DNA of 64,000 nucleotides from Bdellovibrionales bacterium (GCA_965203275.1 OZ241865.1:448001-512000), one strand, 5' to 3'. Counted from the first letter of the stretch, positions 10,243 to 61,091 are shown. The notes: generated by a model not told the origin, from the sequence alone. A program made the numbers and translations.

Positions 10243-10620
10243 GTTTTCACTCAAAGTGGTCTATTTCACTCAAAGTGAACTGACCTCTGGTCACTTTCTG
10301 GCGATGACCACGACGGCTCTCGCCGTCGATAAAATGGTCATCGCCTAGAAAGCCTGTTCACTTTGAGTAGGGAGGATCCTTTTCTTTTTTAACACGATGT
10401 TAAGGAAAAAGTTCCTTCTTACACCTGATTGCCAGATCCCGGATCCCATATCCCAGATCCCGGGCTTAACATGGTGTAAAGGAATAAAAGGATCCTTCTC
10501 TACTCAAAATGAGCGGATTTTTTAGGTGTTGCCTATTTTGTCAAAGGTGTAAGCCTTTGCAGGCAACACCAAAAAACACACCAGCGGTGTGGCTCATTTT
10601 GAGTGAAATGTTAAGAAAAC
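10243..10620. repeat. Modular repeat array: one reverse (10264-10368) and one forward (10502-10608) three-way-junction element, module A and heptamers
   Basis: Nested inverted repeats read directly; same architecture as other arrays. Confidence 0.9.
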
Positions 10621-10701
10621 ACCCTTATTATTATATAATATAGCCTAACTTGAAAAACCTGTATGTTTTTAAAGAAAAGCCTTACTTTGGACCTATTATT
10701 G

Positions 10702-11014
10702 TCTAACTTCGTTAATCTTCATCTACCCGTACGTACCTCTTTCAGAGATACGTGAATTGTCCCCCTCAAAGTTTCCCTTCCTTGAATCTTCTATCTCTAA
10801 TTGCATAAACCCACCAGGTTAAGCCTATTTCAGAGAAATGGAAGGTCAACTTTGAGGTGATCGGTCAGAAGTTTATTGCATAACATCCTAAATATATGCT
10901 TTTTGTTGTATATATTATTCTCAATCCTTATTTTGGGCCTTCTATCATCTAACTTCGTTAATCTTCATCTACCCGTACGTACCTCTTTCAGAGATACGTG
11001 AATTGTCCCCCTCA
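10702..11014. repeat. 67-bp perfect direct repeat (10702-10768 and 10948-11014)
   Basis: TCTAACTTCG...GTCCCCCTCA twice, 246 bp apart, with imperfect similarity extending ~20 bp leftwards. Confidence 0.9.
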
Positions 11015-11015
11015 T

Positions 11016-11372
11016 TGTTTCACTCAAAATGAGCCACACCGCTGGTGTGTTTTTGGGCATTGCTCTTTTTAGACAGCGTATAGCTGTCAGAGCAAACGTC
11101 AGAAGGAAATCTTTTTCCTTAACATTGTGTTAAGAAATGAGGACATCCTCCTTCCTAAAATTGAACAGGCTTTTGAGACAGTTAGCCTTTGATCGACGGC
11201 GAGAGCCGTCGGGCTAACTGTCCAAAAGTAGCCAGAGGCTAGTTCAATTTTAGGGAAACAGAGGTTGGTTTACTTTTAGTGAACGAAAGCCTTCGGCTGG
11301 CAACCAGAAAGTGACCAGAGGTCAGACCACTTTTAGTGAACCAACGGCATGATGCATTTTGAGTGAAAAAAA
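11016..11372. repeat. Modular repeat array: full element 11154-11258 followed by three truncated copies sharing the same end
   Basis: Chain of fragments each ending TTTT(A/GA)GTGAA. Confidence 0.9.
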
Positions 11373-11473
11373 ACAGGCCCATTTTCAGTTTTTTTATTTT
11401 ATAATAAGGTGTATACTTAAATAATAAGGTGTATAATTAAATCATATATGGACAAAAAAAGAGGAGAGTTAGT

Positions 11474-12414: not shown

Positions 12415-12567
12415 CCGGGATCTGGGATCCGGCAACCCGGGATCTGGGATCCGGCAACCCGGGATCTGGGATCCGGCAACCCGGGATCTGGGATCCGGCA
12501 ACCCGGGATCTGGGATCCGGCAACCCGGGATCTGGGATCCGGCAACCCGGGATCTGGGATCCGGCAA
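12415..12567 (+). repeat. Tandem repeat, 7 x 22 bp CCGGGATCTGGGATCCGGCAAC
   Basis: Identical units counted directly (last one lacks its final base); a higher-order repeat of the heptamer tract. Confidence 0.95.
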
Positions 12568-16737: not shown

Positions 16738-17325
16738 TTTTTAACATTTCACTAAAAGTAAACTGACCTCTGGCCACTTTTGGGGAGCAAGCGGACTGCG
16801 ATAAAGGAACTTTTTCCTTAACATGGTATTTATCCGGGATCTGGGATCTGGCATCTGGCATCCGGGATCTGGGATCTGGGATCTGGGATCCGGGATCCAG
16901 CAACCGGCAAAAAAAGGAAATCTTGTTTCCTTAACATGTAGTTAAGAGACGAGGAGATCCTCCCCTACTCAAAATGCATAATTTTTTGAGGCAATGACCA
17001 TTTTGCCAATGGCGAAAGCCATTGCGGTCATTGCCCAAAAACATGCCAGAGGCATGATGCATTTTGAGTGAAACAACTAACTCCCTACTAAAAGTAAACG
17101 GACTTTTGAGGTTGCCAGCATTTAAGAAGGCGAAAGCCTTCGGCTGGCAACCCAAAAGTGACCAGAGGTCAGTTTACTTTTAGTGAAAATCAAATGAGGC
17201 AATGACCATTTTGTCAATGGCGAAAGCCATTGCGGTCATTGCCCAAAAACATGCCAGAGGCATGATGCATTTTGAGTGAAATGTTAAGGAAAAAGTGTCT
17301 TCTGATGCCGGGTTGCCAGATCCCT
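16738..17325. repeat. Modular repeat array: heptamer tract, full elements 16967-17073 and 17087-17188, truncated copy 17197-17281
   Basis: Same modules and junctions as other arrays. Confidence 0.9.
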
Positions 17326-17392: not shown

Positions 17393-18394
17393 TTATTTCT
17401 TCAGCTTGAGAATGTCATCTTTGGACAAACCTGTCATTGTAGAGATCAATGAAATATTGAGATTTTCTTTCAACATATTTAGTGCTACTTTCTCCATTCC
17501 TTCCTTACGACCTTTCTTCATCCCTTTCTCCATTCCTTTCTCCATTCCTTTCTCCATTCCTTTCTCCATTCCTTTCTCCATTCCTTTCTCCATTCCTTCC
17601 TTACGACCTTTCTTCATCCCTTTCTTCATTCCTTCTTCATAAGCACCCTCTTCTCTGGCTGCTTGATCTTTTCTGTCTCTCTCTTTTACCATTGCAAGCT
17701 CCTGTAATGTCTCATCTTTTGATAATATCCATAAATGCTTTGCTGCCTCTGCCATAATACCTCCCTTGTTTTGAAAATTGGTATACTCCTTTAAATCCAT
17801 ATTACCAGAGTTCTTTAAAAGATAACACCAATCTGCCTTTTTGTCAAATAATTCATGCAACCTTGACTGAAACTTGCCTAATTCCACAATGACAAAACAC
17901 AATCCACGAGACATAATCACTTCTGGTGGTTTTGTCCGACGGATATTGCAGATATGATAGTAATCCTTTATCCCTGCAAATTCTTTTAAATTAGCTGTTG
18001 TAAAAACAAGTGAATACACAGGAAGTAATTGATTAAAATCTTCGCCTTTCTTTATCTGACCAGAATAAGCCCTAGAAGCATAAACTAATATCCGATCTGT
18101 AAAAAACTTTTGACTTGTCGTCTGAACTTCTACATGGACAATCTCTGTATTTTGAAGAACGCCTCTGATCCGTCTTCTTAATTTCACACGCAAATCTAAA
18201 GTAAAGGATTTGTATTCGTCTGGAACTTTATCGGGAAGAAGCTCTGTGTTTAATAATGAAACACCCTCTATCACAGAACCTTTAGGCAAAGGTACAAAAT
18301 TCTCTACCAGTGAAATTAAAAGGTCTTCTCTCTTTTCAAAAAAAGCTTTGAAAATAGCATCTATTGTTAATTGTAATAAAACTCTCTCTGTCAT
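17393..18394 (-). CDS. Rpn-family recombination-promoting nuclease / PD-(D/E)XK putative transposase
   Basis: D.IFKAFF, LDLRV, VHVEVQ, DRILVYASRAYSGQ motifs; C-terminal (GMEK)n 12-bp repeats and ALNML...ISTMTGLS tail; GGAGG upstream. Confidence 0.9.
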   Translation of the reverse strand: MTERVLLQLTIDAIFKAFFEKREDLLISLVENFVPLPKGSVIEGVSLLNTELLPDKVPDEYKSFTLDLRVKLRRRIRGVLQNTEIVHVEVQTTSQKFFTDRILVYASRAYSGQIKKGEDFNQLLPVYSLVFTTANLKEFAGIKDYYHICNIRRTKPPEVIMSRGLCFVIVELGKFQSRLHELFDKKADWCYLLKNSGNMDLKEYTNFQNKGGIMAEAAKHLWILSKDETLQELAMVKERDRKDQAAREEGAYEEGMKKGMKKGRKEGMEKGMEKGMEKGMEKGMEKGMEKGMKKGRKEGMEKVALNMLKENLNISLISTMTGLSKDDILKLKK

Positions 18395-18650: not shown

Positions 18651-19086
18651 TCTCACTAAAAGTAAACCAGCCTCTGGCTGTTTTTGGGCAATCAGCCCGA
18701 CGGCTCTCGCCGTCGATCAAAGGCTGATTGCCTCAAAAATCCGTTTATTTTTAGTAGGAAGAATCCTCTTGTCTCTTTACACGATGTTAAGGAAACAAGA
18801 TGTTTACTTCACGTCGATCAAATGGTCATCGCCTAGTGTTGTTACATGGCAAGCTTCAGAGAAGCTTGCTGTCTGACCACTTTTAGTAAGGAGGATCTCT
18901 TCGTTTTTTGACTACATGTTAAGGAAAACATCCTTCATTTTTTAGACCTACTCGCTCTTGAGACAATAAAAGAAAATTTTCCTTAACATGGTGTCAGAAG
19001 CAAGGAGATTCGCCCTACTCAAAATGAACAAGCTTTTGAGGTGGCCAGCCTTTTACGACGGCGTGAGCCGTCGGGCTAACTGCTCA
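18651..19086. repeat. Modular repeat array: reverse element 18652-18755, fragments, and the 5' part of an element interrupted by the 153-bp array
   Basis: Direct reading of shared modules. Confidence 0.88.
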
Positions 19087-20463
19087 TTACCATTCGCATC
19101 CAGATTTTTTATTTGTAAGCACAGAGTTTCAAAGCCAAATAAGATAAAGGGTTGTAAAAACTAATGATATAAATGGGAAAGAGTCTGGTCTCAGGGCAAT
19201 GATTTTGAAATTTAAGAAATAAATTGAAGATCCAGCTCATTACCATTCGCATCCAGATTTTTTATTTGTAAGCACAGAGTTTCAAAGCCAAATAAGATAA
19301 AGGGTTGTAAAAACTAATGATATAAATGGGAAAGAGTCTGGTCTCAGGGCAATGATTTTGAAATTTAAGAAATAAATTGAAGATCCAGCTCATTACCATT
19401 CGCATCCAGATTTTTTATTTGTAAGCACAGAGTTTCAAAGCCAAATAAGATAAAGGGTTGTAAAAACTAATGATATAAATGGGAAAGAGTCTGGTCTCAG
19501 GGCAATGATTTTGAAATTTAAGAAATAAATTGAAGATCCAGCTCATTACCATTCGCATCCAGATTTTTTATTTGTAAGCACAGAGTTTCAAAGCCAAATA
19601 AGATAAAGGATTGTAAAAACTAATGATATAAATGGGAAAGAGTCTGGTCTCAGGGCAATGATTTTGAAATTTAAGAAATAAATTGAAGATCCAGCTCATT
19701 ACCATTCGCATCCAGATTTTTTATTTGTAAGCACAGAGTTTCAAAGCCAAATAAGATAAAGGGTTGTAAAAACTAATGATATAAATGGGAAAGAGTCTGG
19801 TCTCAGGGCAATGATTTTGAAATTTAAGAAATAAATTGAAGATCCAGCTCATTACCATTCGCATCCAGATTTTTTATTTGTAAGCACAGAGTTTCAAAGC
19901 CAAATAAGATAAAGGGTTGTAAAAACTAATGATATAAATGGGAAAGAGTCTGGTCTCAGGGCAATGATTTTGAAATTTAAGAAATAAATTGAAGATCCAG
20001 CTCATTACCATTCGCATCCAGATTTTTTATTTGTAAGCACAGAGTTTCAAAGCCAAATAAGATAAAGGATTGTAAAAACTAATGATATAAATGGGAAAGA
20101 GTCTGGTCTCAGGGCAATGATTTTGAAATTTAAGAAATAAATTGAAGATCCAGCTCATTACCATTCGCATCCAGATTTTTTATTTGTAAGCACAGAGTTT
20201 CAAAGCCAAATAAGATAAAGGATTGTAAAAACTAATGATATAAATGGGAAAGAGTCTGGTCTCAGGGCAATGATTTTGAAATTTAAGAAATAAATTGAAG
20301 ATCCAGCTCATTACCATTCGCATCCAGATTTTTTATTTGTAAGCACAGAGTTTCAAAGCCAAATAAGATAAAGGATTGTAAAAACTAATGATATAAATGG
20401 GAAAGAGTCTGGTCTCAGGGCAATGATTTTGAAATTTAAGAAATAAATTGAAGATCCAGCTCA
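19082..20463. repeat. Tandem array of 9 x 153-bp near-identical units
   Basis: Unit starts at 19082, 19235, 19388, 19541, 19694, 19847, 20000, 20153, 20306; one G/A polymorphism; terminal GCTCA repeated at 20459-20463. Confidence 0.97.
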
Positions 20464-21271: not shown

Positions 21272-21452
21272 TAGGTTATAAAAAACTAAAAAATGAGAAA
21301 TTTCTAAAGTCAACCTAAAAAAGTCTAACAATTACAAACACTTAATGCTGTAACTTTTATACAAAAGTCACAGTATTAACTTATTGAAATCACTGGAATT
21401 CCAATTTCCAAACCTAAATTCCTTACCTTTTCAAAGAAATCCATAAAAACGA

Positions 21453-21897
21453 ATATCTTGTTTCCTTAACATGGTGTTAAGAAACGAAGAGATCCTCCCC
21501 TACTCAAAGTGAACAGACTTTCTAGGCGATGACCATTTTATCGATGGCGAAAGCCATCGTGGTCATCGCCCAGGGTGTAAGAAGGAACTTTTTCCTTAAC
21601 ATGGTGTTAAGAAAAGAGGAGATCCTCCTTACTAAAAATAAACGGATTTTTGAGGCAATCAGCCTTTGATCGACGGCGTGAGCCGTCGGGCTGATTGCCC
21701 AAAAACAGCCAGAGGTTGGTTTATTTTTAGTGAAACAAATGACCATTTTGCCAATGGCGAAAGCCATTGCGGTCATTGCCAGAAAGTAGCCAGAGGCTAG
21801 ACCACTTTTAGTGAACCAGTGAAACAGGCCACTTTTAGTGAACCAGTGAAACAGGCCACTTTTAGTGAACCAGTGAAACAGACCACTTTTAGTGAAT
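21453..21897 (+). repeat. Modular repeat array: partial element, full element 21631-21735, truncated copy and three 27-bp tandem end fragments
   Basis: CCAGTGAAACAGRCCACTTTTAGTGAA x3 at 21815-21895. Confidence 0.9.
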
Positions 21898-24685: not shown

Positions 24686-25719
24686 CCCGGGATCCGGTAT
24701 CTGGGATCCGGCAGCCGGCAACCCGGCATCAGAAGGAAAACTTTTTCCTTAACATCGTGTTAAAAAACGAGGAGATCCTCCCCTACTCAAAATGAGCGGA
24801 TTTTTTAGATGTTGCCTATTTTGTCAAAGGCGAAAGCCATTGCGGTCATTGCCCAAAAGTGGCCAGAGGCCAGTTCACTTTGAGTGAACCAACGGCATTG
24901 CTCTTTTAATATAATTTTAAAGGCATTTTGTTTCCTTAACATCGTGTAAAGAGACGAGAGGGTCCTTTCTACTAAAAGTGGTCAAGCTTTCTAGGCAATG
25001 ACCATTTTGCCAATGGCGAAAGCCATTGCGGTCATTGCCAAAAAGTAGCCAGAGGCTAGACCACTTTTAGTGAGCCAATGCCCAAAAACAGCCAGAGGCT
25101 GGTTTATTTTTAGTGAAAAAGATGAGAAGGCGAAAGCCTTCGGCTGACAACCCAAAAGTGACCAGAGGTCAGTTTACTTTGAGTGAAAATCAAATAAGAC
25201 AATGACCATTTTGCCAATGGCGAAATAAAAAGTGAAATAAATATCTTATTTCCTTAACATGGTGTTAAGAAACGAAGAGATCCTCCCTACTCAAAGTGAA
25301 CAGGCTTTCTAGGCGATGACTATTTTATCGATGTGAAATAAACATCTTGTTTCCTTAACATGATTTTCATCCGGGATCTGGGATCAGGCAACACGGCATC
25401 AGAAAGGACTTTTTCCTTAACATGGTGTTAAGAAATGAGGACATCCTCCTTCCTAAAATTGAACAAGCTTTTGAGGCGATGACCATTTTATCGATGTGAA
25501 ATAAACATCTTGTTTCCTTAACATGATTTTCATCCGGGATCTGGGATCAGGCAACACGGCATCAGAAAGGACTTTTTCCTTAACATGTGGTTAAAAAACG
25601 AAGATATCCTCCCTACTCAAAGTGAACAGGCTTTCTAGGCGATGACTATTTTATCGATGGCGAAAGCCATCGTGGTCATCGCCAGAAAGTGACCAGAGGT
25701 CAGTTCACTTTGAGTGAAA
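24686..25719 (+). repeat. Largest modular array: heptamers, module A, elements 24785-24888 (chimeric), 24971-25073, 25615-25719, truncated copies and a ~110-bp internal duplication
   Basis: 25311-25423 is repeated at 25474-25586 (offset 163, one mismatch). Confidence 0.9.
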
Positions 25720-38839: not shown

Positions 38840-38841
38840 CC

Positions 38842-51022: not shown

Positions 51023-51142
51023 ATTATTTTTACTCTTGTATTATTTGAAATTTTGTTAATTATTCTGTGTTTAAATATGATTCCTTCGATGCATTTCTGC
51101 TTAAAAAAAAATAATATTTAAAGTATCAAAGTCAAAAGCTTG

Positions 51143-51649
51143 TTATAATGTCTTTTTACTCTCTAATGCATGTTGTTGTTCAAGTCTTCTTTGAAATAAA
51201 ACTTCCCTGTTAATTCTATATAAAATAGTTAGTTCTTCTAAGCCATCAGTTTTGACTTTTTTGTATTCTGAAATGAAATTTCTTTTATGTTCCATATCTT
51301 TGACAATGGTGACTTGAGTAGCTTTTTTATTTTTAACTCTTAAAATTGAAATACTCAAAGTGTAACGATATTCAGACAGCTGAGCATGATAAGGCGGTTG
51401 CCATATTTGCTCATTTTGAATATAGTTTGTTTTAAGGATGCCAGATTCCATATCGCTGATAGCTATAGGATAATTATTTAAGGCTATTTGAGCAGCCTTA
51501 AAAACTTGAATATAATCTCCTGAAATAGTTCTTTCTAAAAAATCCGGCACTTTTTTAGGATTGTATGAGACTATGTGAGATGGACTTGATGAGCAAGCAA
51601 TCAAATAGAAAAAGCTCCATATCATTAAGAGTGGTTGTACAAAATGCAT
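51143..51649 (-). CDS. Hypothetical lipoprotein (helix-grip/BamC-like pattern)
   Basis: LIAC lipobox; VFKAAQIALNNYPIAISDMESGILKTNY; start taken at MHFVQP. Confidence 0.65.
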   Translation of the reverse strand: MHFVQPLLMIWSFFYLIACSSSPSHIVSYNPKKVPDFLERTISGDYIQVFKAAQIALNNYPIAISDMESGILKTNYIQNEQIWQPPYHAQLSEYRYTLSISILRVKNKKATQVTIVKDMEHKRNFISEYKKVKTDGLEELTILYRINREVLFQRRLEQQHALESKKTL

Positions 51650-51724
51650 TGTGATTCCCCTAGACATACATAGTTTCATATTAAAAGCTTAACATAAGTA
51701 GTTTTGGGATTCAAGTCAATAAAG

Positions 51725-52474
51725 CTAAAGAAATTGTCTGTAAAAACTTTTAAAATATAAGGCAAAAAAATTGTCTCTATTAGACATCTGCAAAAAAAAA
51801 CGTAGAAAGATATGAGGCAATCTATGATATTCTCCAATGGATTGGTAAATAGCATTGACATGTTGAGGATCAAGGCTCATAAGGACTTCAAAAGAAGTTT
51901 TAAAACCACAATCATGTTCTATCATCTGAAATGTAGAAGAAAATGATCGAAAGGCATACCTATTGTCATTAGGTATTTGTTCACAACGATGATTCAATGT
52001 GAGGGTCTCTCCTTGAGATTCTGAAATACTGCATATCAAAAATACTCGAGGATAGATTTCTGCATACCTTCTGTCTAAACCCATCGGAGAAAATATAAAT
52101 GAAACTTCGGAGCGTTTTACTTCTGTAGTACCTACTTCTGTAGTTTTTGGAACAGGTATTGCAGTTTCTTGAGATATTTTCATATCTAGTGGTCTGATAT
52201 TTCGGGTATTGAGCCGAAAGATCAATCTAGATATAATACCTGTGATAGGATGTTCTGGATTAAATGCCTTTAACCATTCATTCCAGATCATACTCCAAGA
52301 AATCTCATCATCAATTTCTTTGTAGTTTTCAAAATGAGTAATTCTGAGTTTTACTCTTTCATAGTCTGCTGGTATACACTGATCGTTTGAGCTTTTTATA
52401 ATAATTGTGTCATTTGTTAAAGCCCTAGTTGAGAAAGACCAAAATAATATGAAAATATAAATAAATACTTGCAT
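51725..52474 (-). CDS. Hypothetical secreted protein
   Basis: MQVFIYIFILFWSFSTRA signal peptide after AAGGGG; start overlaps the upstream stop. Confidence 0.65.
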   Translation of the reverse strand: MQVFIYIFILFWSFSTRALTNDTIIIKSSNDQCIPADYERVKLRITHFENYKEIDDEISWSMIWNEWLKAFNPEHPITGIISRLIFRLNTRNIRPLDMKISQETAIPVPKTTEVGTTEVKRSEVSFIFSPMGLDRRYAEIYPRVFLICSISESQGETLTLNHRCEQIPNDNRYAFRSFSSTFQMIEHDCGFKTSFEVLMSLDPQHVNAIYQSIGEYHRLPHIFLRFFLQMSNRDNFFALYFKSFYRQFL

Positions 52475-53100
52475 TACGGCCCCCTTGTTATTTCGATGCA
52501 TTCAATATCAGCATCTCCTGTATTGAAAGCAAGGGAAGGTTCTGTTGAGATATTTTCTTCTTCATTTGGAGAGGATGTATCTGTCTGAGGATTCTCAGGA
52601 TTCTCATGGTCCTCAGGGGCCTCAGAGGCCTCGGAGGTAAGTGGATTTGCATTAGTATTCTCAACGTTATCTTGATCTGTGGGATCTGTGGCAAATATAC
52701 CTGATGTTGAAAATAAAGGGGAGTCTAAGGTTTCAATCATTTTTTCAATCCAATCCTGAAGTGGCAAGCCATCAATTTGACATTGTATATTTTTTAAAGT
52801 GATTGCTATGTTGTGGAGTTCTTGAAGATGATTGGCAATGTTTTTTATAGGATCTAAATCTTGTTCTATGGATTGCAAGTGAGATGCAATGTTTTTTAAA
52901 GAAAATGCTACACCTTCAAGTACTTGCAAGGCTTCTACAATACTATCTATCTTTTGGTTAATAGTTTCAATAGATTTTGTGTTGTGGGCAATATCTCGAG
53001 TGTCTTTTTGTATGCCACATCCCACCCAACATATTATGCCGATGCACAGAGTGCCAAGAAAAATTAACTTTTGAAAAGGTGTGTTTTTTAATTTTGACAT
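52474..53100 (-). CDS. Hypothetical lipoprotein with coiled-coil repeats and acidic tail
   Basis: WVGC lipobox-like; KNIASHLQ/KNIANHLQ heptad repeats. Confidence 0.65.
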   Translation of the reverse strand: MSKLKNTPFQKLIFLGTLCIGIICWVGCGIQKDTRDIAHNTKSIETINQKIDSIVEALQVLEGVAFSLKNIASHLQSIEQDLDPIKNIANHLQELHNIAITLKNIQCQIDGLPLQDWIEKMIETLDSPLFSTSGIFATDPTDQDNVENTNANPLTSEASEAPEDHENPENPQTDTSSPNEEENISTEPSLAFNTGDADIECIEITRGP

Positions 53101-53203
53101 AGTAAAAATCCTTTTTTATTATTCTCTTTTTTAATTAATATAACTTGAATAGATAAGCAACCTTCAAATTAAAAAATATCATATTATAGAAGGTAAAACA
53201 AAT

Positions 53204-53710
53204 ATGCAACTTTATTATAAGGCTTTTCAAAGTCCACTTGGATGGATAGGTTTGTTGGCCTCTCCTCAGGGACTCCAACAGGTTTTTTGGAATACATCCT
53301 CTCATTATGTCCTTCCCTTTGCTACTTTAAAGCCAAAATACCCTATCTTACAAGAAGCTGAAAAGCAAATCAAAGAGTATTTTGAAGGGAGAAGAAAACA
53401 ATTTTCCCTCTGTTTAGATTTAAGGCAAGGTACATCTTTTCAGAGGAAGGCTTGGCATGCCCTACAAAAGATTCCTTATGGTCAGGTCATTTCTTATCAA
53501 AAACAAGCAGGCATGATGGGGTGTTATCGTGGATATAGGGCCGTAGGCAATGCAAATGGTAAAAACCCTATCCCTATTATTATCCCGTGTCATAGGGTAA
53601 TTCGTAAATCATCAGAAACAAAAATGACTCAACGTAAGATGGGTGGCTTTACAGGAGGGATAGAAAAAAAGGCTTTTTTACTCCAGCTAGAAGGTACTTT
53701 GGTTCACTAA
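53204..53710 (+). CDS. ogt: Methylated-DNA--protein-cysteine methyltransferase
   Basis: GTSFQ..AW.ALQKIPYG, RAVGNANGKNP, IPCHRV active site, LLQLEG. Confidence 0.95.
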   Translation: MQLYYKAFQSPLGWIGLLASPQGLQQVFWNTSSHYVLPFATLKPKYPILQEAEKQIKEYFEGRRKQFSLCLDLRQGTSFQRKAWHALQKIPYGQVISYQKQAGMMGCYRGYRAVGNANGKNPIPIIIPCHRVIRKSSETKMTQRKMGGFTGGIEKKAFLLQLEGTLVH

Positions 53711-54503
53711 AAGTGGTCTAGCCTCTGGCTACTTTCTGGCAATGACCGCAATGGCTTTCGCCATTGGCAAAATGGTCATCACCTAGAAAGCCTGACCACT
53801 TTTAGTAGAAAGGATCTCTTCGTTTTTTAACACGATGTTAAGGAAAAAGATTTTCATTTGTAAACCCGCTTGCTCTCCAAAAATATTTTAGAAGAATACC
53901 TTGTTTCCCTAACATGGTGTCAGAAGCAAGGAGATCCGCTCTACTCAAAATGAGCAGATTTTTGAGGCATTGCTCTGACAGCGATAGCTGTCAGAGCAAT
54001 GCCCAAAAACACACCAGAGGTGTGGCTCATTTTGAGTGAAATGTTAAGGAAAAAGTTCTTTCTTACACCTTGAGTGTTGCCTGCAAAGGCTTTCGCCATT
54101 GGCAAAATGGTCATTGCCTCATTTGATTTGCACTAAAAGTAAACTGACCTCTGGTCACTTTTGGGTAGCCAGCCCGACGGCTACCGCCGTCGATCAAAGG
54201 CTGACTACCTCAAAAGTCCGTTTACTTTTAGTAGGGGAGGATCTCCTCGTCTCATAACTACATGTTAAGGAAAAAGTTCCTTCTCAAAAGCTTGTTCAAT
54301 TTTAGGAAGGAGGATATCCTCATTTTTTAACACCATGTTAAGGAAAAAGTTCCTCCTTACACCAGGATCCCGAGTTGCCGGTTCCCGGATGCCGGATCCC
54401 GGATCCCGGAAAAAGGATCCTCTCATATCCTTACACGATGTTAAGGAAACAAGCTATTTATTGCATTTTCTTTCGCCATCGGTAAAATGGTCATTGCCTC
54501 AAA
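53702..54503. repeat. Modular array: reverse elements 53703-53806 and 54131-54232, forward 53943-54041, module A copies and heptamers
   Basis: Starts inside the last codons of ogt; lies between convergent genes. Confidence 0.9.
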
Positions 54504-54513
54504 CTGAACACTT

Positions 54514-55194
54514 TTAGGGAAAAAGGTCTATACAATTTTCAAAAATGACTTCTGGTGGATTTTCAGGATTGTATCTCGACATAGCATGCAATATGGCTTT
54601 CGACTTTTGAGTTTTATGGACCAAAGCATATCCTATAGCAGTCCATCCCCATTTATTGCTAATATCTATCCTTGCACCCCTGCTGAGTAGAAAACATATA
54701 GTTTCAATACGTTCATTTAAGACGGCTAACATCAAGGCTGTATTCCCCTGAATATTTGTGGCGTCTATTGTGCGATAGCCACCAGCCTGTAAAATTATTT
54801 TAATAATCTCTATATTGTCTCTTTTATCTGCGGCAACCATTAACAATGTTTCTTCCAATTCTGGAATAATTATAGCATTGGGATCTGCTCCAAAATCTAA
54901 GAATAACTGGATGATTGCTTTTTTATCATTTTCTCTATCGCAAACTTCATCAGCCAAAAGAACTTTTAAAAAAGATTGACCTCTATCATCTAAGGCATTA
55001 GGGTCTTCACCCCTTAGCAAGGCATCTCTTACTTGATCAGCCCGGCATAACAAAACAGCAAACTTTAGAGATATTAAATTTTCTGCGGTTTGAGAGGATC
55101 TCAGCGAAGCTTGACTGTGACCGAAGGTTATTTTTTGAGTCAATAAACCAAAGCTAATCAATGTGAAAAAAATTATATGTCGTAAAGAGATCAT
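54514..55194 (-). CDS. Secreted ankyrin-repeat protein
   Basis: Signal-like N-terminus; GEDPNALD, GADPNA, ETLLMVAA, GNTALMLAV, GWTAIGYA repeats. Confidence 0.9.
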   Translation of the reverse strand: MISLRHIIFFTLISFGLLTQKITFGHSQASLRSSQTAENLISLKFAVLLCRADQVRDALLRGEDPNALDDRGQSFLKVLLADEVCDRENDKKAIIQLFLDFGADPNAIIIPELEETLLMVAADKRDNIEIIKIILQAGGYRTIDATNIQGNTALMLAVLNERIETICFLLSRGARIDISNKWGWTAIGYALVHKTQKSKAILHAMSRYNPENPPEVIFENCIDLFP

Positions 55195-55283
55195 CTATTT
55201 GACTTTAGATAAGATTCCAGACAGACACAAGTCCAAATCATATATTTGTGTTAATATTTTGTTTCTTTAATATGGTTTTCATA

Positions 55284-55357
55284 CGGGATCTGGGATCCGG
55301 GATCCGGCAACCGGCATCAGGTCCTGGAACCCGGGATGCTGGATTGCCAGATCCCGG
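55284..55357. repeat. Short heptamer tracts in opposed orientations
   Basis: GGGATCTGGGATCCGGGATCCGGCAACCGGCATCAGG followed by GGATTGCCAGATCCCGG. Confidence 0.75.
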
Positions 55358-55385
55358 AAGAACACCCTATTCAGGAAAAATAAGG

Positions 55386-56000
55386 TCAGATCAAAGGGTC
55401 TATAGGGATCACTTGAATATCTGGAAAGTCTTGTTGAAGGATCGATTCAATGGCATAAAGTGTCCCAGTGACAGCACTAGGGCAGGTCCCACAAGCCCCT
55501 TCGTAACGTATATAAAGCTTATTTCCTTCATACTTAACAACTTCTAAATCCCCTCCATCAGCTTGTAATCCACTTCTGACAGTGCGATCTAAAATAGCTT
55601 CTATTTTTTGCAAGGCAGGTGATGTTTGCTCTTTACACATTTTATTATTTTGGGCTTTTTGTTGATTAAAATGTGGATTATGAGTGGGCAATCTTGTGAT
55701 CAATACTGATTCAATTTGAGGCGATAGGTCCTTCCAATCAGAAGTATTCAAGCTGGGATCGCCTTCTTTTGTAATGCTAATGGCATTTTCAAAAAAATGT
55801 ACTTGTATGATGCCTGGGATAGCTAAAAGGTCTCTAGCTAAAATATTTCCCTTATAATCATCACCTGGATAAAAAGTAGCCTTCCCATCCTCAATAACTT
55901 TTTTAGTCACAATAAATTTTAAAGCATTCGGATTAGGCGTAGATTGAATATCCATATTTATACCTATAATGTAATGTTGTTCATCTTCTCTGCACTTCAC
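55386..56000 (-). CDS. NifU/NfuA family Fe-S cluster carrier (Nfu_N + NifU_C)
   Basis: TPNPNALKF N domain; VRSGLQADGGD, GACGTCPSA; exact start uncertain. Confidence 0.92.
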   Translation of the reverse strand: MKCREDEQHYIIGINMDIQSTPNPNALKFIVTKKVIEDGKATFYPGDDYKGNILARDLLAIPGIIQVHFFENAISITKEGDPSLNTSDWKDLSPQIESVLITRLPTHNPHFNQQKAQNNKMCKEQTSPALQKIEAILDRTVRSGLQADGGDLEVVKYEGNKLYIRYEGACGTCPSAVTGTLYAIESILQQDFPDIQVIPIDPLI

Positions 56001-56381
56001 TTAAAGAAAACTTTGCATAGTTTACTCAAAATATCTCTTAATACCACATATAATACCACACACTCTATCACCTTTTGTTTGTTGCATATATGCATATATC
56101 ATTCCACATATCATTTATCATTCTTTTATCAATTAAATCAATTGATAATGATATTTGTGCTTTGACAGCATAAATATAATGACTTGCAAAAGAAGCCATC
56201 AATTAATTATTTTCCCTGTCCTGTAATGATGAAGTATTTGTTATCGATATTTATTTTGATACGATCTAATGCTAATGCAAAATCTAACGTAAAAGCTAAT
56301 GCTAATCTAATGAAAAATCCGACGAATACACAAGTATACTATAATAGCTATTGAATAAAGAAAGGCCTTAACACATCAAAG

Positions 56382-57590
56382 TCAAGAATTTTTCAGCTCC
56401 ATTTTAGCAATAGTTTGAAGTTGCATATTACTAGTGCCTTCATATATTTGACCTATTTTAGCATCACGATAATATTTTTCAATAGGATACTCTGTGGTAA
56501 AGCCATTGCCTCCAAAAAGGTCAACACCTAGTGAGCAAACTTTTTCACTCATGCGAGAGGAAAATAACTTAGCCATAGCTGCTTCTTTTGTGAAAGATAA
56601 ACCTGCATCCTTCAATCGAGCTGCATTATAAACCATGAGTCTGGCTGCTTCTAAAAGCATTCGCATTTCTGCTAATTGGAACTGCACAGCTTGAAACTTT
56701 GCAATAGGACTGCCAAATTGTTGCCTTGAAAGAATATACTGTTTGGTAGCATCATAAGCTCCTTGTGCAATACCAATCATTTGAGCTCCAATACCAATCC
56801 GCCCTTCATTTAAAACATGAATGGCAATCTTATAACCTTGACCAATCTCACCTAGAATATTTTCTTTAGGTACTCTACATTGATCGAAGATCAATTCACA
56901 AGTAGAGCTAGCTTTGATACCTAATTTGCTTTCCTTCTTTCCAACAGAAAAACCTTCAAAATCCCTCTCTACTAAAAAAGCTGTGATCCCTTTGTAACCT
57001 TTAGAAAAATCAACATTAGCAAAGACTAAAAAAAGCTGAGCTTCTTGAGCATTGGTGATCCATAACTTATGACCATTTAATAAATAGGAATCACCTTTTT
57101 TGTCTGCTTTAAGTTTTAGAGCAAAAGCATCTGACCCACTCGAGCTTTCTGATAAAGCATAAGCCCCTATCCATTGAGAGGATAACAAGGGTAAATATTT
57201 TGCCTTTTGACTGGGATTAGCCCAATAAAGCAGTGCATTATTCACAAGCGTGTTTTGTACATCCACTAAAATACTAACGGAACCATCCACACAACCTAGC
57301 TCCTCAACAGTCAAACAAACTGTTGTAAAAGAGCTACCTAAACCTCCAAATTCCTCTGGTATTTCGATCCCCATAATTCCCATATCAAAAAGCTTTGGTA
57401 TAAGATCAGGGTTTATTGTAGAAGCTTGATCCATTTGATAAACTAAAGGTTTGATTTCTTCTTTAGCAAACTCCTTGATGGCTTCTTTGAATGATATTTC
57501 ATCTTCCGAAAGATGAGTTAAAGCATATCTGATGGACTCTTGAGAACTTTGAGACACAATAGATTCTCCTGATAAATACTTATCCTTCAA
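56382..57590 (-). CDS. Short/branched-chain acyl-CoA dehydrogenase
   Basis: YALSESSSGSDAF, GHKLWITN, KLGIKASST, LNEGRIGI, RQQFG, YRDAKIGQIYEGTSNMQ. Confidence 0.95.
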   Translation of the reverse strand: MKDKYLSGESIVSQSSQESIRYALTHLSEDEISFKEAIKEFAKEEIKPLVYQMDQASTINPDLIPKLFDMGIMGIEIPEEFGGLGSSFTTVCLTVEELGCVDGSVSILVDVQNTLVNNALLYWANPSQKAKYLPLLSSQWIGAYALSESSSGSDAFALKLKADKKGDSYLLNGHKLWITNAQEAQLFLVFANVDFSKGYKGITAFLVERDFEGFSVGKKESKLGIKASSTCELIFDQCRVPKENILGEIGQGYKIAIHVLNEGRIGIGAQMIGIAQGAYDATKQYILSRQQFGSPIAKFQAVQFQLAEMRMLLEAARLMVYNAARLKDAGLSFTKEAAMAKLFSSRMSEKVCSLGVDLFGGNGFTTEYPIEKYYRDAKIGQIYEGTSNMQLQTIAKMELKNS

Positions 57591-57613
57591 ATATTTTTTG
57601 TGTTTATTTAATG

Positions 57614-57904
57614 TTAATGAAACAAAAAAATTAAATCCTGATCTTCAACCATATCAAAATGCTCTCTAGCAATTCTTTCTAAATGGGTCGGCATGTAATT
57701 TTTTTGGATTTCAAGCGATATATTAAGGCTTTTTTCTTTTAAGTGATCGATCTTATGAGTGAGATAAGCCTCTTTTTGAGATAACTTCCAAATTTTAACG
57801 GCCGTTCCATCTACTATAAGGTGAAAGATCATCCAAATAGAACACACAATCAATACAATTTGTGGGGACATAAGTAATTTTTCTATAAAATATCTACGTT
57901 GCAT
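57614..57904 (-). CDS. Septum formation initiator (FtsB/DivIC-like)
   Basis: TM helix, coiled coil, LERIAREHFDMV..QDLIF motif. Confidence 0.75.
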   Translation of the reverse strand: MQRRYFIEKLLMSPQIVLIVCSIWMIFHLIVDGTAVKIWKLSQKEAYLTHKIDHLKEKSLNISLEIQKNYMPTHLERIAREHFDMVEDQDLIFLFH

Positions 57905-58310
57905 AGTGTCATTTTCCTTTATATGATGGGAAAAAACAAATAGAAATAGTCCATTTGCTTTTTTCTACACTTTAGAACAAATCAATAGTCTGTTGTTCTC
58001 ACCACCATAGCTTCTAGCCTTAAAAGTATGAGAAAAAGTGTAAGGTGATTAAAAGGTTAGAAGCTTTAGTTAAAAAACGAAAGATCAAAGATCAAAGATC
58101 ATTAAACTCGACTTTAAGCTTAAATAAAAGCACTTAAGAATTTATTTTATTATAATTGTTTCAAATTGAGAAGTTTTCATTATTCCTTCCATTTTCCTCT
58201 GTGAATTGATCGCTAGATTTTTTTATGTGTTGTTCTTTCTTTTATTTGTAAAGGCTTTGTATGGGTAAAGGCTTTGTATCAAATCAAACTATAAAATTTA
58301 ATAAAAAATA

Positions 58311-59165
58311 TTAAAACCTCTCTTTAAGCCATGCCATTACATCTGAATAAACTTTTTCTCTGCCTATATCATTAAATATTTCATGGAGGTAGCCTTCATA
58401 AATCTTAAGAGTCTTGTCTGCCGAGGTGACTCTTTTAAAATAAGTTTTAGTCGCATCCACACTGACAAATGTATCTTGGCCTCCTTGCATCACTATAATA
58501 GGTAATTTGATCCTTGATGCATGATCTACAACATACTGACAGCCTTTTTCTAAACTAAAAAAGAGCCTAGGGCTGATTTTATCATGTCTTAAATGGTCAT
58601 GTTTGTATTCATTGATCACATCTCTGTCTCTACTAAGTTTATCATAACAAATATCGTATCTTCGAAAAGCAACGTCAGGAAGCCATTTGGCACAAAACTT
58701 CCCTGCCATCAGTAAAAGCTTAGGTACATCGACAGATAAACCACATAAAGGAGAGCTTAAAAGTAATCCATTTACGTTGAGTGCTTTGAGTTCTGATTCG
58801 TTAAGAGAAAGTAGCATTTTATTGCAGATCAGTCCTCCCATAGAATGCCCTAATAAAAATACTGGTATATCAGTTTGTTGATCTTGAACATACTTGATAA
58901 ATAGTTTCAGGTCCTCACAGAGATCAAAGAAATCATACACGACACCTCTTTTACCTTCAGAGCGTCCATGCCCTCGCAAATCCCAACCATAAATATTGAC
59001 ATTAAGAGGCTTTAAACCATTAGCAAATCTTTGATAACATTCTGAATGTTCACTTAAACCATGTGTTACAATTATAACACCTGTCGCTTTTTCAACAATC
59101 CAAGACTGATAAAACAGTTCTGAATCATTTAATCCACGAAAGTAACCTTCTTCTCTTTTTATCAT
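58311..59165 (-). CDS. Lysophospholipase / monoacylglycerol lipase-like alpha/beta hydrolase
   Basis: HGLSEHS, DLRGHGRS.G.RG, LGHSMGG, YEGYLHEIFND. Confidence 0.93.
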   Translation of the reverse strand: MIKREEGYFRGLNDSELFYQSWIVEKATGVIIVTHGLSEHSECYQRFANGLKPLNVNIYGWDLRGHGRSEGKRGVVYDFFDLCEDLKLFIKYVQDQQTDIPVFLLGHSMGGLICNKMLLSLNESELKALNVNGLLLSSPLCGLSVDVPKLLLMAGKFCAKWLPDVAFRRYDICYDKLSRDRDVINEYKHDHLRHDKISPRLFFSLEKGCQYVVDHASRIKLPIIVMQGGQDTFVSVDATKTYFKRVTSADKTLKIYEGYLHEIFNDIGREKVYSDVMAWLKERF

Positions 59166-59472
59166 AATAAAATCTCCTTATATAGAATCTACTGATCACA
59201 ACAAGGCTCTTTCACACGATAGAGAGCTTTTCTGTCCCACTATAGTTATTATTTATGATAAAGTAAACTTCTTTTTTAAATTCATTTTATTTTTGCTTGC
59301 AATGCTCTGCAAGTTTTTATGACAAAGCTTAAAATATCTTCAATATTTTTGCTATTCTTACCTTATTCTTGTAGCTATAATAATCTCTCTTTAAGATTAT
59401 TATGAGTTTGTCACTAGACTTGATAATGATGTCTGTAGTAATTATATAGTCAATCAAAAAGGAGTTTTATTT

Positions 59473-60267
59473 ATGGCCTCTCCATTCGATCAACAAGCAT
59501 CTATTGATGGCATACAAAATGTTTTTGTCATAGCTTCTGGTAAAGGAGGTGTGGGCAAAAGCACTGTAACAAGTAATTTAGCTCTGGCACTTTGTCAACA
59601 AGGTAAAAAGATAGGACTCTTAGATTGTGATATTTATGGCCCTAGCATTCCTCGTATGTTGGGTTTGCTCAATCAGAAACCTACTGTCAGTAAAGACAAT
59701 CGTTTGATCCCATTAGAAAAATATAACATGAAGGTTATGAGTATTGGCTTTATGGTAGCAGAAACCTCTGCTGTGGTATGGCGTGGACCCATGCTATTTA
59801 AAGCCATTGATCAATTTTTAAAAGATGTTCAGTGGGGGTTGTTAGATGCTCTTATAATTGATTTGCCTCCGGGGACAGGTGATGTGCAGTTGACGTTGGC
59901 ACAGAGGATTCCCATTACAGGTGCTGTGGTTGTCACAACCCCTCAAAATGTGGCTTTAGCTGATGTGATCAAGTCTATTGATATGTTTAAAACAGTTAAA
60001 GTACCTGTGATAGGGGTGGTAGAAAATATGTCTTATTTTAGGTCAGAGCAAGGACGTATGGAGCTTTTTCCAAAAGGCGATTTACAATCTTATTTAACTC
60101 AAAATAATATTCCTCTTTTAGCTCAAGTGCCATTTCATACTTCTGTAGCTATGGGAGGGGAAGCAGGTTTACCTGTTGTACAAACACACCCTCAGAGCAT
60201 CGAATCCCAGGCTTTCTTTCAAATAGCTCAGTCAATTGGCTCACTAATTTCACTAAAAGTAAACTAG
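59473..60267 (+). CDS. mrp: Mrp/NBP35 (ApbC) Fe-S cluster carrier ATPase
   Basis: ASGKGGVGKST, DIYGPS, VVWRGPM, DLPPGTGD, GVVENMS; last codons come from the repeat element. Confidence 0.95.
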   Translation: MASPFDQQASIDGIQNVFVIASGKGGVGKSTVTSNLALALCQQGKKIGLLDCDIYGPSIPRMLGLLNQKPTVSKDNRLIPLEKYNMKVMSIGFMVAETSAVVWRGPMLFKAIDQFLKDVQWGLLDALIIDLPPGTGDVQLTLAQRIPITGAVVVTTPQNVALADVIKSIDMFKTVKVPVIGVVENMSYFRSEQGRMELFPKGDLQSYLTQNNIPLLAQVPFHTSVAMGGEAGLPVVQTHPQSIESQAFFQIAQSIGSLISLKVN

Positions 60268-61091
60268 CCTCTGGCTACTTTTGGACATTGCTCTTTTTGG
60301 ACAGCGATAGCTGTCAGAGCAATGCCCAAAAACACACCAGAGGTGTGGCTCATTTTGAGTGAAATGTTAAGGAAAAAGTTCCTTTTTTTGTTTTTTTTAT
60401 TCTCTTTTAGATTCTGCGTAACTCTCAAAAAAAAAGTAATTAAGAGGAGGATGGGGGCAGAGGGAGACTGGAGATCTTCCGCAAATTGAGCTTGCTCCTC
60501 AAAACATTCTAGAAGCATATCTTGTTTCCCTAACATGGTGTTAGAAGCAAGGAGATCCGCCCTACTCAAAATGCATAGATTTTTGAGGCAATGACCATTT
60601 TGTCAAAGGCGAAAGCCTTTGCGGTCATTGCCCAAAAACATGCCAGAGGCATGATGTATTTTGAGTGAAAAAAATTGAGGACTTCGGAAGGCTCCCTCTG
60701 CCCTCATCCTCAAGTAAAAACAAAATGGAATAGCAGAATCAAAGGGTGGCGGGTGGGGTTAGGGGTTTGTTTCACTAAAAGTGGTCTGACCTCTGGTCAC
60801 TTTCTGGTTGCCAGCCGAAGGCTATTCGCCTTCTCAAATGCTGGCAACCTAGAAAGCCTGACCACTTTTAGTAGAAAGGATCTCTTCGTCTCTTGACTAC
60901 ATGTTAAGGAAAAAGTTCCCTCCTGACTGCCTGATGCCGGGTTGCCAGATTCCGGATCCCAGATCCCGGAAAAAGGATCCTTTCGTTTTTTGTTTTTTTT
61001 ATTATCTCTTAGATTCTGCGTAACTTTCAAAAAAAATATAAATGTTATGAGTGGAAGGCGGAGGCAGGCTGAAGGAGTTGTTTCACTAAAA
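60248..61091. repeat. Modular array: head-to-head fused element, module D interrupted by a forward element (60564-60670), reverse element 60771-60872, heptamers, module C
   Basis: Fills the whole gap between convergent mrp and acnA and overlaps both stop codons. Confidence 0.9.

What the first reader, a model, noticed from the sequence alone, without database searches (positions are those of the whole stretch)
10264..60872. High-copy ~100-nt three-way-junction element with conserved shape and hypervariable sequence
Seen: about 19 near-complete copies. Forward: 10502, 11154, 12628, 16967, 17087, 21631, 24785, 24971, 25615, 36228, 36621, 36912, 53943, 60564. Reverse: 10264, 18652, 53703, 54131, 60771. 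The geometry is nearly constant: P1 13 bp; a 3-nt linker, usually purines; P2 of 6 bp, a bulged A, 10-11 bp, a ~6-nt T-rich bulge, 6-7 bp and a GNNA loop; P3 5-6 bp with an AGA loop; then GAAA. P1 occurs in seven self-paired variants: ACTCAAAGTGAAC, ACTAAAAGTGGTC, ACTAAAAGTAAAC, ACTAAAAATAAAC, CCTAAAATTGAAC, ACTCAAAATGAGC, ACTCAAAATGCAT. P2 (GGCAATGACC, GACAGTTAGCC, GGTAGCCAGCC, GGTGTTGCCT, GGCAATCAGCC, GGCATTGCTC) and P3 (TGACC, TAGCC, TGGCC, CAGCC, CATGCC, CACACC) covary the same way. Several residual mismatches are G-T wobbles on the strand carrying the GNNA loops (10547, 12640, 21717, 60657), with a counter-example in the 18652 copy. Loops include GATA and GGTA as well as GAAA, GAGA, GTGA and GTAA, which fits the stable DNA minihairpin GC-GNNA-GC better than strict RNA GNRA. 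Inference: a shape-recognised ssDNA or RNA substrate of a mobile or amplifying system, larger and more branched than classical REP/BIME units. I do not recognise it as a described family.
Basis: partly seen in the sequence, partly recalled or inferred. Interest (0 to 1): 0.92.

Follow-up and report, generated by a model that had tools for sequence, protein, structure and literature searches.

The report
Abundant three-armed hairpin DNA repeat
A 157-base non-coding unit that folds into a three-armed hairpin is copied over a thousand times between the genes of an uncultured Bdellovibrio-like bacterium; it behaves like a selfish mobile repeat that keeps its shape while its letters change, and the enzyme that moves it is unknown.

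Summary
All 19 listed copies are real (84.7-122 bits), with the stated geometry and seven self-paired P1 variants.

The scan has already reported this family on at least five other windows of this same genome.

- **Size:** the true unit is about 157 nt, made of a 5' spacer, a two-hairpin leader, the 101-nt junction and a GAAACA tail.
- **Abundance:** a unit HMM gives 1,464 hits covering 7.1% of the genome.
- **Fold:** 25 of 38 predicted pairs show compensatory changes. Covariation is 0.408 against 0.171 in shuffles.
- **Mobility:** one paralogous empty site shows a precise 157-nt insertion with no duplication and no loss. Other insertions replace 5-31 nt, often in hairpins or in older copies.
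- **Enzyme:** the genome has no Y1-HUH, reverse transcriptase or IS110 gene.
- **Co-occurring genes:** a small four-helix-bundle gene and Rpn-like nuclease genes occur in the 3 of 5 family genomes that carry the repeat. Neither is physically linked to it in relatives.
- **Distribution:** among genomes searched, it occurs only in this bacterial family.
- **Databases:** no Rfam, plasmid, phage or literature match was found.

Verdict: a new, elaborate variant of selfish structured intergenic repeats. Its mechanism is unresolved.

The parts
10264..10368 (-). three-way-junction (3WJ) copy, P1 ACTCAAAGTGAAC; whole unit 10261-10423
   Evidence: cmsearch 122.2 bits; unit HMM 6-168
10502..10608 (+). 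3WJ copy, P1 ACTCAAAATGAGC; head-to-head with the previous copy across a short heptamer stretch
   Evidence: 96.3 bits; sequence
11154..11258 (+). 3WJ copy, P1 CCTAAAATTGAAC; followed by orphan 3' tails at 11284-11343
   Evidence: 118.8 bits
12628..12731 (+). 3WJ copy preceded by its leader and a 22-nt x 7 heptamer-type array (12415-12567)
   Evidence: 107.4 bits; TRF
16967..17073 (+). 3WJ copy, P1 ACTCAAAATGCAT
   Evidence: 107.2 bits
17087..17188 (+). 3WJ copy without a leader, followed by a decayed copy at 17189-17281
   Evidence: 112.2 and 52.5 bits; HMM 55-166
18651..18755 (-). 3WJ copy carrying an A:C mismatch in P1
   Evidence: 113.8 bits
21631..21735 (+). 3WJ copy flanked by a truncated copy (21449-21572) and a 3' remainder (21739-21818)
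   Evidence: 116 bits
24785..24889 (+). chimeric 3WJ: 5' half of one variant, 3' half of another, crossover at the P2 apical loop
   Evidence: 84.7 bits; sequence
24971..25075 (+). 3WJ copy followed by stacked orphan tails (25076-25189)
   Evidence: 109 bits
25615..25719 (+). 3WJ copy; two 3'-truncated copies upstream (25237-25333, 25399-25496)
   Evidence: 121.3 bits
36228..36332 (+). 3WJ copy downstream of argS
   Evidence: 119.8 bits
36621..36725 (+). 3WJ copy nested behind two truncated copies (36335-36456, 36455-36559), with a remainder at 36726-36770
   Evidence: 113.4 bits
36912..37016 (+). 3WJ copy
   Evidence: 117.6 bits
53702..53806 (-). 3WJ copy
   Evidence: 112.1 bits
53943..54041 (+). 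3WJ copy lacking the T-rich bulge (95 nt)
   Evidence: 88.1 bits
54128..54232 (-). 3WJ copy with truncated pieces on both sides (54076-54121, 54283-54528)
   Evidence: 115.5 bits
60564..60670 (+). 3WJ copy; a decayed copy lies at 60252-60364
   Evidence: 106.9 and 44.6 bits
60770..60872 (-). 3WJ copy
   Evidence: 106.5 bits
24152..24735 (+). cassette: heptamer array, hairpin that sequesters the ribosome-binding site, 101-aa four-helix-bundle gene (24364-24669, PF05635), second heptamer stretch; the leader and 3WJ at 24785 follow directly
   Evidence: unit HMM hits

Best explanation
This is a selfish, non-autonomous repeat of about 157 nt. The unit consists of a purine-rich spacer beginning GATAGAAG, a leader with two small hairpins, the 101-nt three-way junction, and a GAAACA tail.

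Shown:
- It has been copied into hundreds of intergenic sites.
- New copies can enter precisely, without a target-site duplication. More often they replace 5-31 nt of target.
- Hairpins are frequent targets, and so are older copies of the unit itself.
- The fold is kept while the stems change in a compensatory way.
- Stem modules are re-assorted between copies.

Inferred:
- The fold is needed for copying, probably as a folded single strand or an extruded DNA junction. This is more likely than a classical cut-and-paste transposase site.
- The re-assortment is gene conversion. Each inner hairpin is a contiguous tract bounded by conserved blocks, so one conversion swaps both halves of a stem together.
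- The helper acts in trans and belongs to no known single-strand transposase family.
- The only leads are the co-occurring Rpn-like PD-(D/E)XK nucleases and the small four-helix-bundle protein.
For: Copy number. 648 arm-matched copies, 374 of them distinct. 1,464 unit-HMM hits cover 182 kb, 7.1% of the genome. Of these, 819 are full units and 63 are whole 3WJs without a leader. Only 1 of 819 full units lies inside an ORF.

Fold.
- P1 is 99.1% paired, P2 96.2%, P3 99.4%.
- Covariation is 0.408 against 0.171 in shuffles (0 of 500 reach it) and at most 0.111 for slid partners.
- 25 of 38 predicted pairs carry double changes.

Insertion.
- 37 repeat islands have an empty paralogous partner.
- The cleanest is a 157-nt insertion with gap 0, no duplication and no loss.
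- The other single-unit cases that I read replace 5-31 nt.
- Units interrupt 5 of the 14 four-helix-bundle gene copies.
- Hairpin targets keep their 5' arm and lose the loop and 3' arm.

Modules. 182 five-module haplotypes. 37 of 108 P1 x P2-mid combinations are seen. Cramer's V ranges 0.35-0.83.

Age and spread.
- The same architecture occurs in a same-genus genome and in a second genus.
- It was not found in the other 38 genomes, nor in the 150 other genomes of the phylum sample. The two samples share some genomes.

Known enzymes not found. PF01797, PF00078 and PF01548 each give 0 matches. Only 2 tyrosine recombinases are present.

Co-occurrence.
- PF05635: 14, 19 and 19 copies in the three carriers (G000, G001, G004); 0 and 0 in the two non-carriers (G002, G003).
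- PF12784: about 58 ORF fragments, then 5 and 1 in the other two carriers; 0 and 0 in the non-carriers.
- IS256 does not track the repeat.
Against: - No enzyme is identified.
- The four-helix-bundle gene is followed by a unit in 9 of 11 copies here. In the same-genus relative the nearby junctions lie on the opposite strand. In the other genus none lies within 1.5 kb.
- No unit lies within 3 kb of the Rpn-like genes of the relatives.
- The co-occurrence rests on 5 related genomes.
- Only one fully clean insertion was found. Replacement of target DNA with short shared stretches could equally mean repair or template switching without a dedicated enzyme.
- Few copies are identical: 144 of 790 fall in identical groups and the largest group has 5. 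Recent activity is therefore not shown.
- There is no orientation bias relative to GC-skew replichores (298/297 and 118/106) or to flanking genes. Lagging-strand ssDNA mechanisms usually show such a bias.
- Contigs of four other DNA runs break at the repeats, so no presence/absence polymorphism between strains could be read.
Confidence: 0.55

Rival explanations
1. The unit is a functional structured RNA module. It would be a transcript-embedded stabiliser, processing site or insulator, comparable to the intervening sequences cut out of ribosomal RNA. Under this reading its fold is kept for the cell's benefit and its spread is secondary.
For: - G:T wobbles outnumber A:C on the loop-bearing strand (212 to 124 raw, 61 to 36 in the strictest count).
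- That strand folds 1.7-2.8 kcal/mol better in 3 of 3 copies tested.
- In the second genus, three units sit in sense orientation between rpsQ and rplN inside the ribosomal-protein operon, so they must be transcribed and tolerated there.
- The leader holds a hairpin that pairs a ribosome-binding-like purine run with a CCUCC-like run.
- In this genome units follow the four-helix-bundle gene as a likely 3' UTR in 9 of 11 copies.
Against: - Units show no orientation preference relative to neighbouring genes: 111 to 87 and 114 to 120 in tandem gaps.
- 32% of apical loops are GNNA but not GNRA.
- Units disrupt genes and older units.
- There is no Rfam match.
- A copy load of 7% of the genome, with hundreds of truncated pieces, looks parasitic.
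Confidence: 0.17
2. No dedicated enzyme exists. The units would be amplified and scattered by replication template switching, hairpin breakage and microhomology-mediated repair or gene conversion, as a by-product of their strong fold. This resembles mosaic BIME-type repeats.
For: - Most filled/empty pairs show replacement of 5-31 nt rather than simple insertion. Junctions share short stretches with the unit's purine-rich 5' end or A-rich tail.
- The 5' ends vary in length.
- Tandem arrays and chimeras are common.
- Intergenic DNA is a mosaic of several repeat families in recurring orders.
Against: - One insertion is exact to the base with defined ends.
- More than 600 separate repeat islands are hard to reach by slippage alone.
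- Related genomes of the same family lack the repeat entirely, which fits a transmissible element better than a general repair by-product.
Confidence: 0.15
3. It is a PATE- or REPIN-type element moved on single-stranded DNA by a Y1 HUH transposase (IS200/IS605 TnpA or RAYT) that is too divergent to detect, was recently lost, or sits on an unsampled replicon.
For: - The ends are asymmetric and the insertion is TSD-free.
- There are strong subterminal hairpins, and the shape is conserved rather than the sequence.
- Both DNA strands fold with z about -10.
Against: - PF01797 finds nothing in a single-contig genome, while the same search rings in 6 of 14 control genomes.
- No conserved target tetranucleotide is visible.
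- There is no strand bias relative to replication.
- Most insertions delete target DNA.
Confidence: 0.06
4. It is a retro-mobile, SINE-like element copied through RNA.
For: - The tail is A-rich and of variable length, and the 5' ends vary.
- On the opposite strand, the order closing stem, short hairpin, long hairpin recalls retron non-coding RNA. This resemblance is recalled, not tested.
Against: - PF00078 finds no reverse transcriptase, and the first look had 0 candidates.
- 3'-truncated pieces (391) are as common as 5'-truncated ones (327). Abortive reverse transcription would not give that balance.
Confidence: 0.03

Closest known systems
REP / BIME / REPIN elements of Proteobacteria (mobilised by RAYT, a Y1 HUH transposase)
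   Same: Both are high-copy, intergenic, hairpin-forming and non-coding. Both combine with other short motifs into mosaics and behave as selfish non-autonomous DNA. (I saw PMC2817692 as a search listing and abstract only.)
   Different: This unit is four to five times longer and is a three-way junction plus two leader hairpins. It has about nine self-complementary P1 alleles and re-assorting stem modules. The genome has no RAYT or Y1 gene. No inverted-doublet rule was seen.
Palindrome-associated transposable elements (PATEs) of IS200/IS605
   Same: Asymmetric ends, structured subterminal DNA, and insertion without a target duplication.
   Different: There is no TnpA. TnpB-type hits are limited to one 1,365-aa Cas12-like gene. 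No fixed target motif is seen. Target DNA is often replaced.
Classical MITEs (Correia, ERIC, RUP, RPE and the like)
   Same: Size class of 100-160 nt, inverted repeats, hundreds of copies, and ability to fold. (These properties are recalled.)
   Different: The true ends are not the inverted repeats. No TSD is present. No matching DDE element exists: IS256 is present here but absent from one carrier genome.
Integron attC sites
   Same: Both are recognised by folded shape rather than sequence, with bulged bases and sometimes a branched tip. (Recalled.)
   Different: The copies are dispersed genome-wide rather than in an array beside an integrase. Only two tyrosine recombinase genes are present.
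ORF-bearing intervening sequences of 23S rRNA and the four-helix-bundle (PF05635) heptamer cassettes noted elsewhere in this scan
   Same: The window's cassette at 24152-24735 carries a PF05635 gene between heptamer arrays. Units often start just after such arrays: 137 of 819.
   Different: The flanking arrays here are direct, not mirror-image. The three-way junction itself was found only in this bacterial family. (I saw PMC4990558 as a search listing and abstract only.)

Membership tests
REP/REPIN-RAYT | A RAYT (Y1 HUH, PF01797) gene in the genome, typically flanked by REPs | tested here: not met
   0 matches in the single-contig genome, 6 of 6 candidates scored; the control search rings in 6 of 14 genomes
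REP/REPIN-RAYT | A short (about 20-40 nt) simple imperfect palindrome as the repeated unit | tested here: not met
   The unit is about 157 nt with a 101-nt three-way junction
IS200/IS605 PATE | Insertion without a target duplication, and asymmetric structured ends | tested here: met
   One base-exact filled/empty pair with no TSD; the ends GATAGAAG... and ...GTGAAACA are not inverted repeats
IS200/IS605 PATE | TnpA (Y1) present, and a fixed 4-5-nt target next to the left end | tested here: not met
   No PF01797; no conserved flank motif in 180 single units
DDE-type MITE | Terminal inverted repeats at the very ends, plus a target-site duplication | tested here: not met
   The P1 arms are internal: about 56 nt of spacer and leader precede them. 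No TSD is present
Integron attC | An array next to an integron integrase | tested here: not met
   More than 600 dispersed islands; only 2 PF00589 hits
Retron or other RT-dependent element | A reverse transcriptase gene | tested here: not met
   PF00078: 0 matches, 0 candidates
IS110 / bridge-RNA elements | A DEDD transposase (PF01548) | tested here: not met
   0 matches
Any Rfam family | A covariance-model match | tested here: not met
   Only a tRNA reaches gathering score in the window. At E<=1 over 24100-25800, which holds three whole copies, no match falls on a unit
BIME-like mosaic repeat (descriptive class) | Recurrent combinations of a structured repeat with other short motifs in intergenic DNA | tested here: met
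   Heptamer arrays, leader halves, tails and a second and third repeat family adjoin the units in recurring orders
Four-helix-bundle heptamer cassette (23S IVS-like) | A PF05635 gene enclosed by mirror-image heptamer arms | tested here: inconclusive
   The gene is present (56 bits). The arrays on both sides are in direct orientation in the window. Some other copies have a local inverted array downstream

The most novel reading that the evidence does not exclude
The unit would define a new class of bacterial mobile DNA whose recognition determinant is a folded three-way junction rather than a sequence. It would be copied into hairpins and loops without target duplication. The helper would be of a kind not yet known to move DNA: an Rpn-like PD-(D/E)XK branched-DNA nuclease, the small four-helix-bundle 'ribosomal-RNA intervening-sequence' protein, or both. 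That would also give the first mechanism for the widespread heptamer/four-helix-bundle cassettes.
Probability: 0.15. Interest if true: 0.9.

Novelty: new variant of a known kind. Interest (0 to 1): 0.66.

Why it matters
If the fold is what gets copied, this family is a natural experiment. About nine P1 alleles and dozens of stem alleles all keep one shape across more than a thousand copies. That makes it unusually clean material for learning how a structure-specific DNA or RNA machine reads its substrate.

The genome lacks the usual single-strand transposases (Y1-HUH, IS110) and reverse transcriptase, so the mover is either a new enzyme type or a host repair route. Either answer bears on the long-standing question of how bacterial intergenic repeats spread.

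The tie to the four-helix-bundle gene and heptamer arrays may connect it with ribosomal-RNA intervening sequences.

In practice, 7% of the genome in such repeats breaks short-read assemblies. Contigs of four runs stop at the units.

Tried and rejected
- **RNA evidence:** no RNA holder was listed for window 34400-39200, so expression is untested.
- **Strain polymorphism:** contigs of four DNA runs laid on 45000-64000 stop at the repeats. The many joints link one repeat to another, and no contig bridges an empty site.
- **Empty sites in the same-genus genome:** genes are only 68-77% identical and synteny is broken, so I dropped this route.
- **Exact-word search for nested copies:** too few clean cases came out.
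- **Split-host pairing:** only 68 of 391 3'-truncated pieces have a matching 3' partner. A matching P1 3' arm lies within 900 nt for 122 of 250, and part of that is chance because P1 classes are few.
- **Guide-like pairing:** I looked for pairing between the leader's pyrimidine run and the target, but leaders vary while the P3-loop target is constant (by eye). I rejected the idea.
- **Terminator targeting:** units are densest in divergent gaps (223 per 306), less so in convergent (164 per 305) and tandem gaps (432 per 1,071). I rejected the idea.
- **Physical linkage to candidate genes:** linkage to Rpn-like or four-helix-bundle genes is not conserved in relatives.
- **Pattern scan of genome contigs:** Apart from the same-genus MAG it returned four hits in other taxa, and none of them has a junction.
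- **Plasmid and phage collections:** blastn found no match.
- **Not searched:** IS91 (Y2), DDE families other than IS256, metagenome and viral contig collections, and ISfinder (not available).

Full report
**Context.** The window is bases 448,001-512,000 of a single-contig genome of 2,567,810 bp and 35.1% G+C. A same-genus relative carries the title 'MAG: Bdellovibrionales bacterium'. The genome holds about 105 ankyrin-repeat ORFs, which suggests a host-associated life. Earlier notes of this scan describe the same repeat family on at least five other windows of this genome. I re-derived everything below myself.

**Observation.** A search for 13-nt inverted arms gave 18 copies in the window, and all fold into the same three-way junction. 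I built a covariance model from 101 copies, each differing from the others by more than 3 positions (11 from the window, 90 from twenty other 20-kb regions).

The nineteenth copy, at 24785, is a chimera. Its 5' half and 3' half come from different variants, joined at the apical loop. A unit HMM finds 50 whole or partial pieces in the window, covering 5,516 bp from 6492 to 60923.

**Anatomy.** The junction is not the whole unit.
- Twenty to fifty bases upstream of P1 are conserved. They form a hairpin around TTAACA...TGTTAA and a second hairpin that pairs a purine run with a CCTCCCT-type run around GATC.
- GAAACA follows P1.
- One paralogous empty site fixes the ends. The insert is 157 nt, starting GATAGAAGAAC and ending AGTGAAACA.
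- Apical loops are GNNA in 566 of 648 copies but strict GNRA in only 358. They are closed by GC..GC in 584 of 648. The P3 loop is AGA in 625 of 648.
- Both DNA strands fold far better than shuffles (z -9.4 to -11.2). The loop-bearing strand is 1.7-2.8 kcal/mol better in 3 of 3 copies.

**Abundance and place.**
- Genome-wide there are 648 copies with matched arms, 374 of them distinct, in about nine main P1 classes.
- The unit HMM gives 1,464 hits covering 182 kb (7.1%). Of these, 819 are full units, 63 are whole junctions without a leader, 391 are 3'-truncated and 327 are 5'-truncated.
- Only 1 of 819 full units lies inside an ORF.
- There is no orientation bias relative to GC-skew replichores or to neighbouring genes.
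- Density is highest in divergent intergenic gaps.

**Structure is under constraint.**
- P1, P2 and P3 are 99.1%, 96.2% and 99.4% paired.
- The covariation score is 0.408, against 0.171 in shuffles (0 of 500 reach it) and at most 0.111 with slid partners.
- RNAalifold finds double changes in 25 of 38 pairs.
- G:T exceeds A:C on the loop-bearing strand. The counts are 212 to 124 raw, about 124 to 42 after removing four mis-registered columns, and 61 to 36 after also removing two lineage-driven columns. This is a modest hint that this strand is the one that folds.
- Stem modules are partly linked (Cramer's V 0.35-0.83) but widely re-assorted: 182 five-module haplotypes, and 37 of 108 P1 x P2-mid combinations.

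Each inner hairpin is a contiguous tract bounded by conserved blocks. Gene conversion can therefore swap both halves of a stem at once. Single-ended events give mismatched chimeras such as the 24785 copy. This last step is inference.

**Mobility.**
- Of 630 repeat islands, 37 have a paralogous partner that lacks the island.
- The cleanest case is base-exact, with no duplication and no loss. A second, into the T-rich bulge of an older copy, is nearly so.
- Other single-unit cases replace 5-6, 9, 14, 24-26 and 30-31 nt of target. Junctions share short stretches with the unit's purine-rich 5' end or its A-rich tail.
- Hairpin targets keep their 5' arm and lose the loop and 3' arm. This holds both in an unrelated repeat family and in the P2 apical hairpin of older units.
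- Units interrupt 5 of the 14 copies of the four-helix-bundle gene.
- About 160 pieces are cut near the P2-P3 junction and run straight into the next unit.
- Few units are identical: 144 of 790 fall in identical groups and the largest group has 5. A recent burst is therefore not shown.

**Who moves it?**
- The genome has no Y1 HUH transposase, no reverse transcriptase and no IS110 transposase.
- It has two tyrosine recombinases and one Cas12-like gene.
- Multi-copy genes are ankyrin proteins, about 58 ORF fragments of Rpn-like PD-(D/E)XK nucleases, 14 four-helix-bundle genes (PF05635), 9 IS256 and 6 resolvases.

| Family | G000, own (carrier) | G001 (carrier) | G004 (carrier) | G002 (no repeat) | G003 (no repeat) |
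|---|---|---|---|---|---|
| PF05635 (four-helix bundle) | 14 | 19 | 19 | 0 | 0 |
| PF12784 (Rpn-like) | about 58 fragments | 5 | 1 | 0 | 0 |
| IS256 (PF00872) | 9 | 11 | 0 | 1 | 0 |

Across the five genomes of this family, PF05635 and PF12784 are present in exactly the three that carry the repeat. IS256 does not track it. This is a weak correlation among kin.

Physical linkage is not conserved. Here 9 of 11 four-helix-bundle genes are followed by a unit 55-90 nt downstream on the same strand. In the same-genus relative the nearby junctions lie on the other strand, and in the second genus none lies within 1.5 kb. No unit lies within 3 kb of the relatives' Rpn-like genes.

**Distribution.**
- The model matches 3 of 41 genomes in the relatives sample: the own genome, the same-genus genome, and one of two genomes of a second genus.
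- It matches 0 of 150 other genomes in a phylum sample.
- In the second genus the leader, junction and tail are all kept, with new stem alleles. Three units lie in sense orientation between rpsQ and rplN.
- There is no Rfam match at gathering score or at E<=1.
- There is no plasmid or phage match.
- Five literature searches found no description. I saw listings and abstracts only.

**Verdict.** The best reading is a selfish, non-autonomous, fold-dependent repeat. It inserts without target duplication, prefers hairpins and its own older copies, and is reshuffled by conversion. Its helper is unknown. It works like REP/BIME, PATE and MITE elements, but it fails the membership tests of each known family that I could test. 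A functional-RNA role and an enzyme-free repair origin remain live rivals.

Noticed in passing
window 19082-20463: A second repeat of 153 nt forms a tandem array of 9 copies at 99% identity. Elsewhere in the genome single copies (at least 13) sit at one exact spot of the three-way junction, the 3' base of P2 (..CCCA|AAAG..), in hosts of different P1 classes. Its nature is unknown.
   Followed up: partly
window 24152-24735: The 101-aa four-helix-bundle gene (PF05635) has its ribosome-binding site paired in a conserved upstream hairpin. The same hairpin is present in the second genus (L054). The gene lies between direct heptamer arrays of the CCGGGAT/CTGGGAT type.
   Followed up: partly
window 12415-12567, 16832-16897, 24157-24254, 36121-36177: Heptamer-based tandem arrays (a 22-nt unit x 7 at 100% identity in the first) lie just upstream of unit leaders. 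Genome-wide, 137 of 819 full units follow such an array, and the arrays begin inside a half leader hairpin.
   Followed up: partly
window 6690-6880 and about 15 other loci: A third repeat family of about 190 nt (starts CCCTAACCCCACCC, contains a GAGGATGGGGCAGTGTG inverted repeat and a central hairpin) often adjoins the units. At G000:124818-124974 it hosts a unit inside its central hairpin.
   Followed up: partly
window 17393-18394 (-): An Rpn-like PD-(D/E)XK 'transposase' ORF, one of about 58 fragments in the genome. Many of these are split or abutted by units. Only 5 and 1 copies occur in the two relatives that carry the repeat.
   Followed up: partly
G004 locus L048 1330-2230: In the second genus three units fill the spacer between rpsQ and rplN of the ribosomal-protein operon, in sense orientation.
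   Followed up: no
window 27759-27933: A 53-nt unit is repeated 3.3 times at 95% identity. Each unit is itself a near-palindrome (TCCCAAAATGCAAGG...CCTTGCATTTTTGGA). It is unrelated to the junction family.
   Followed up: no
whole genome vs G001: Copies of the unit in the two species of the genus are up to 85-86% identical, whereas housekeeping genes such as uvrB are 77% identical and gene order is scrambled.
   Followed up: no
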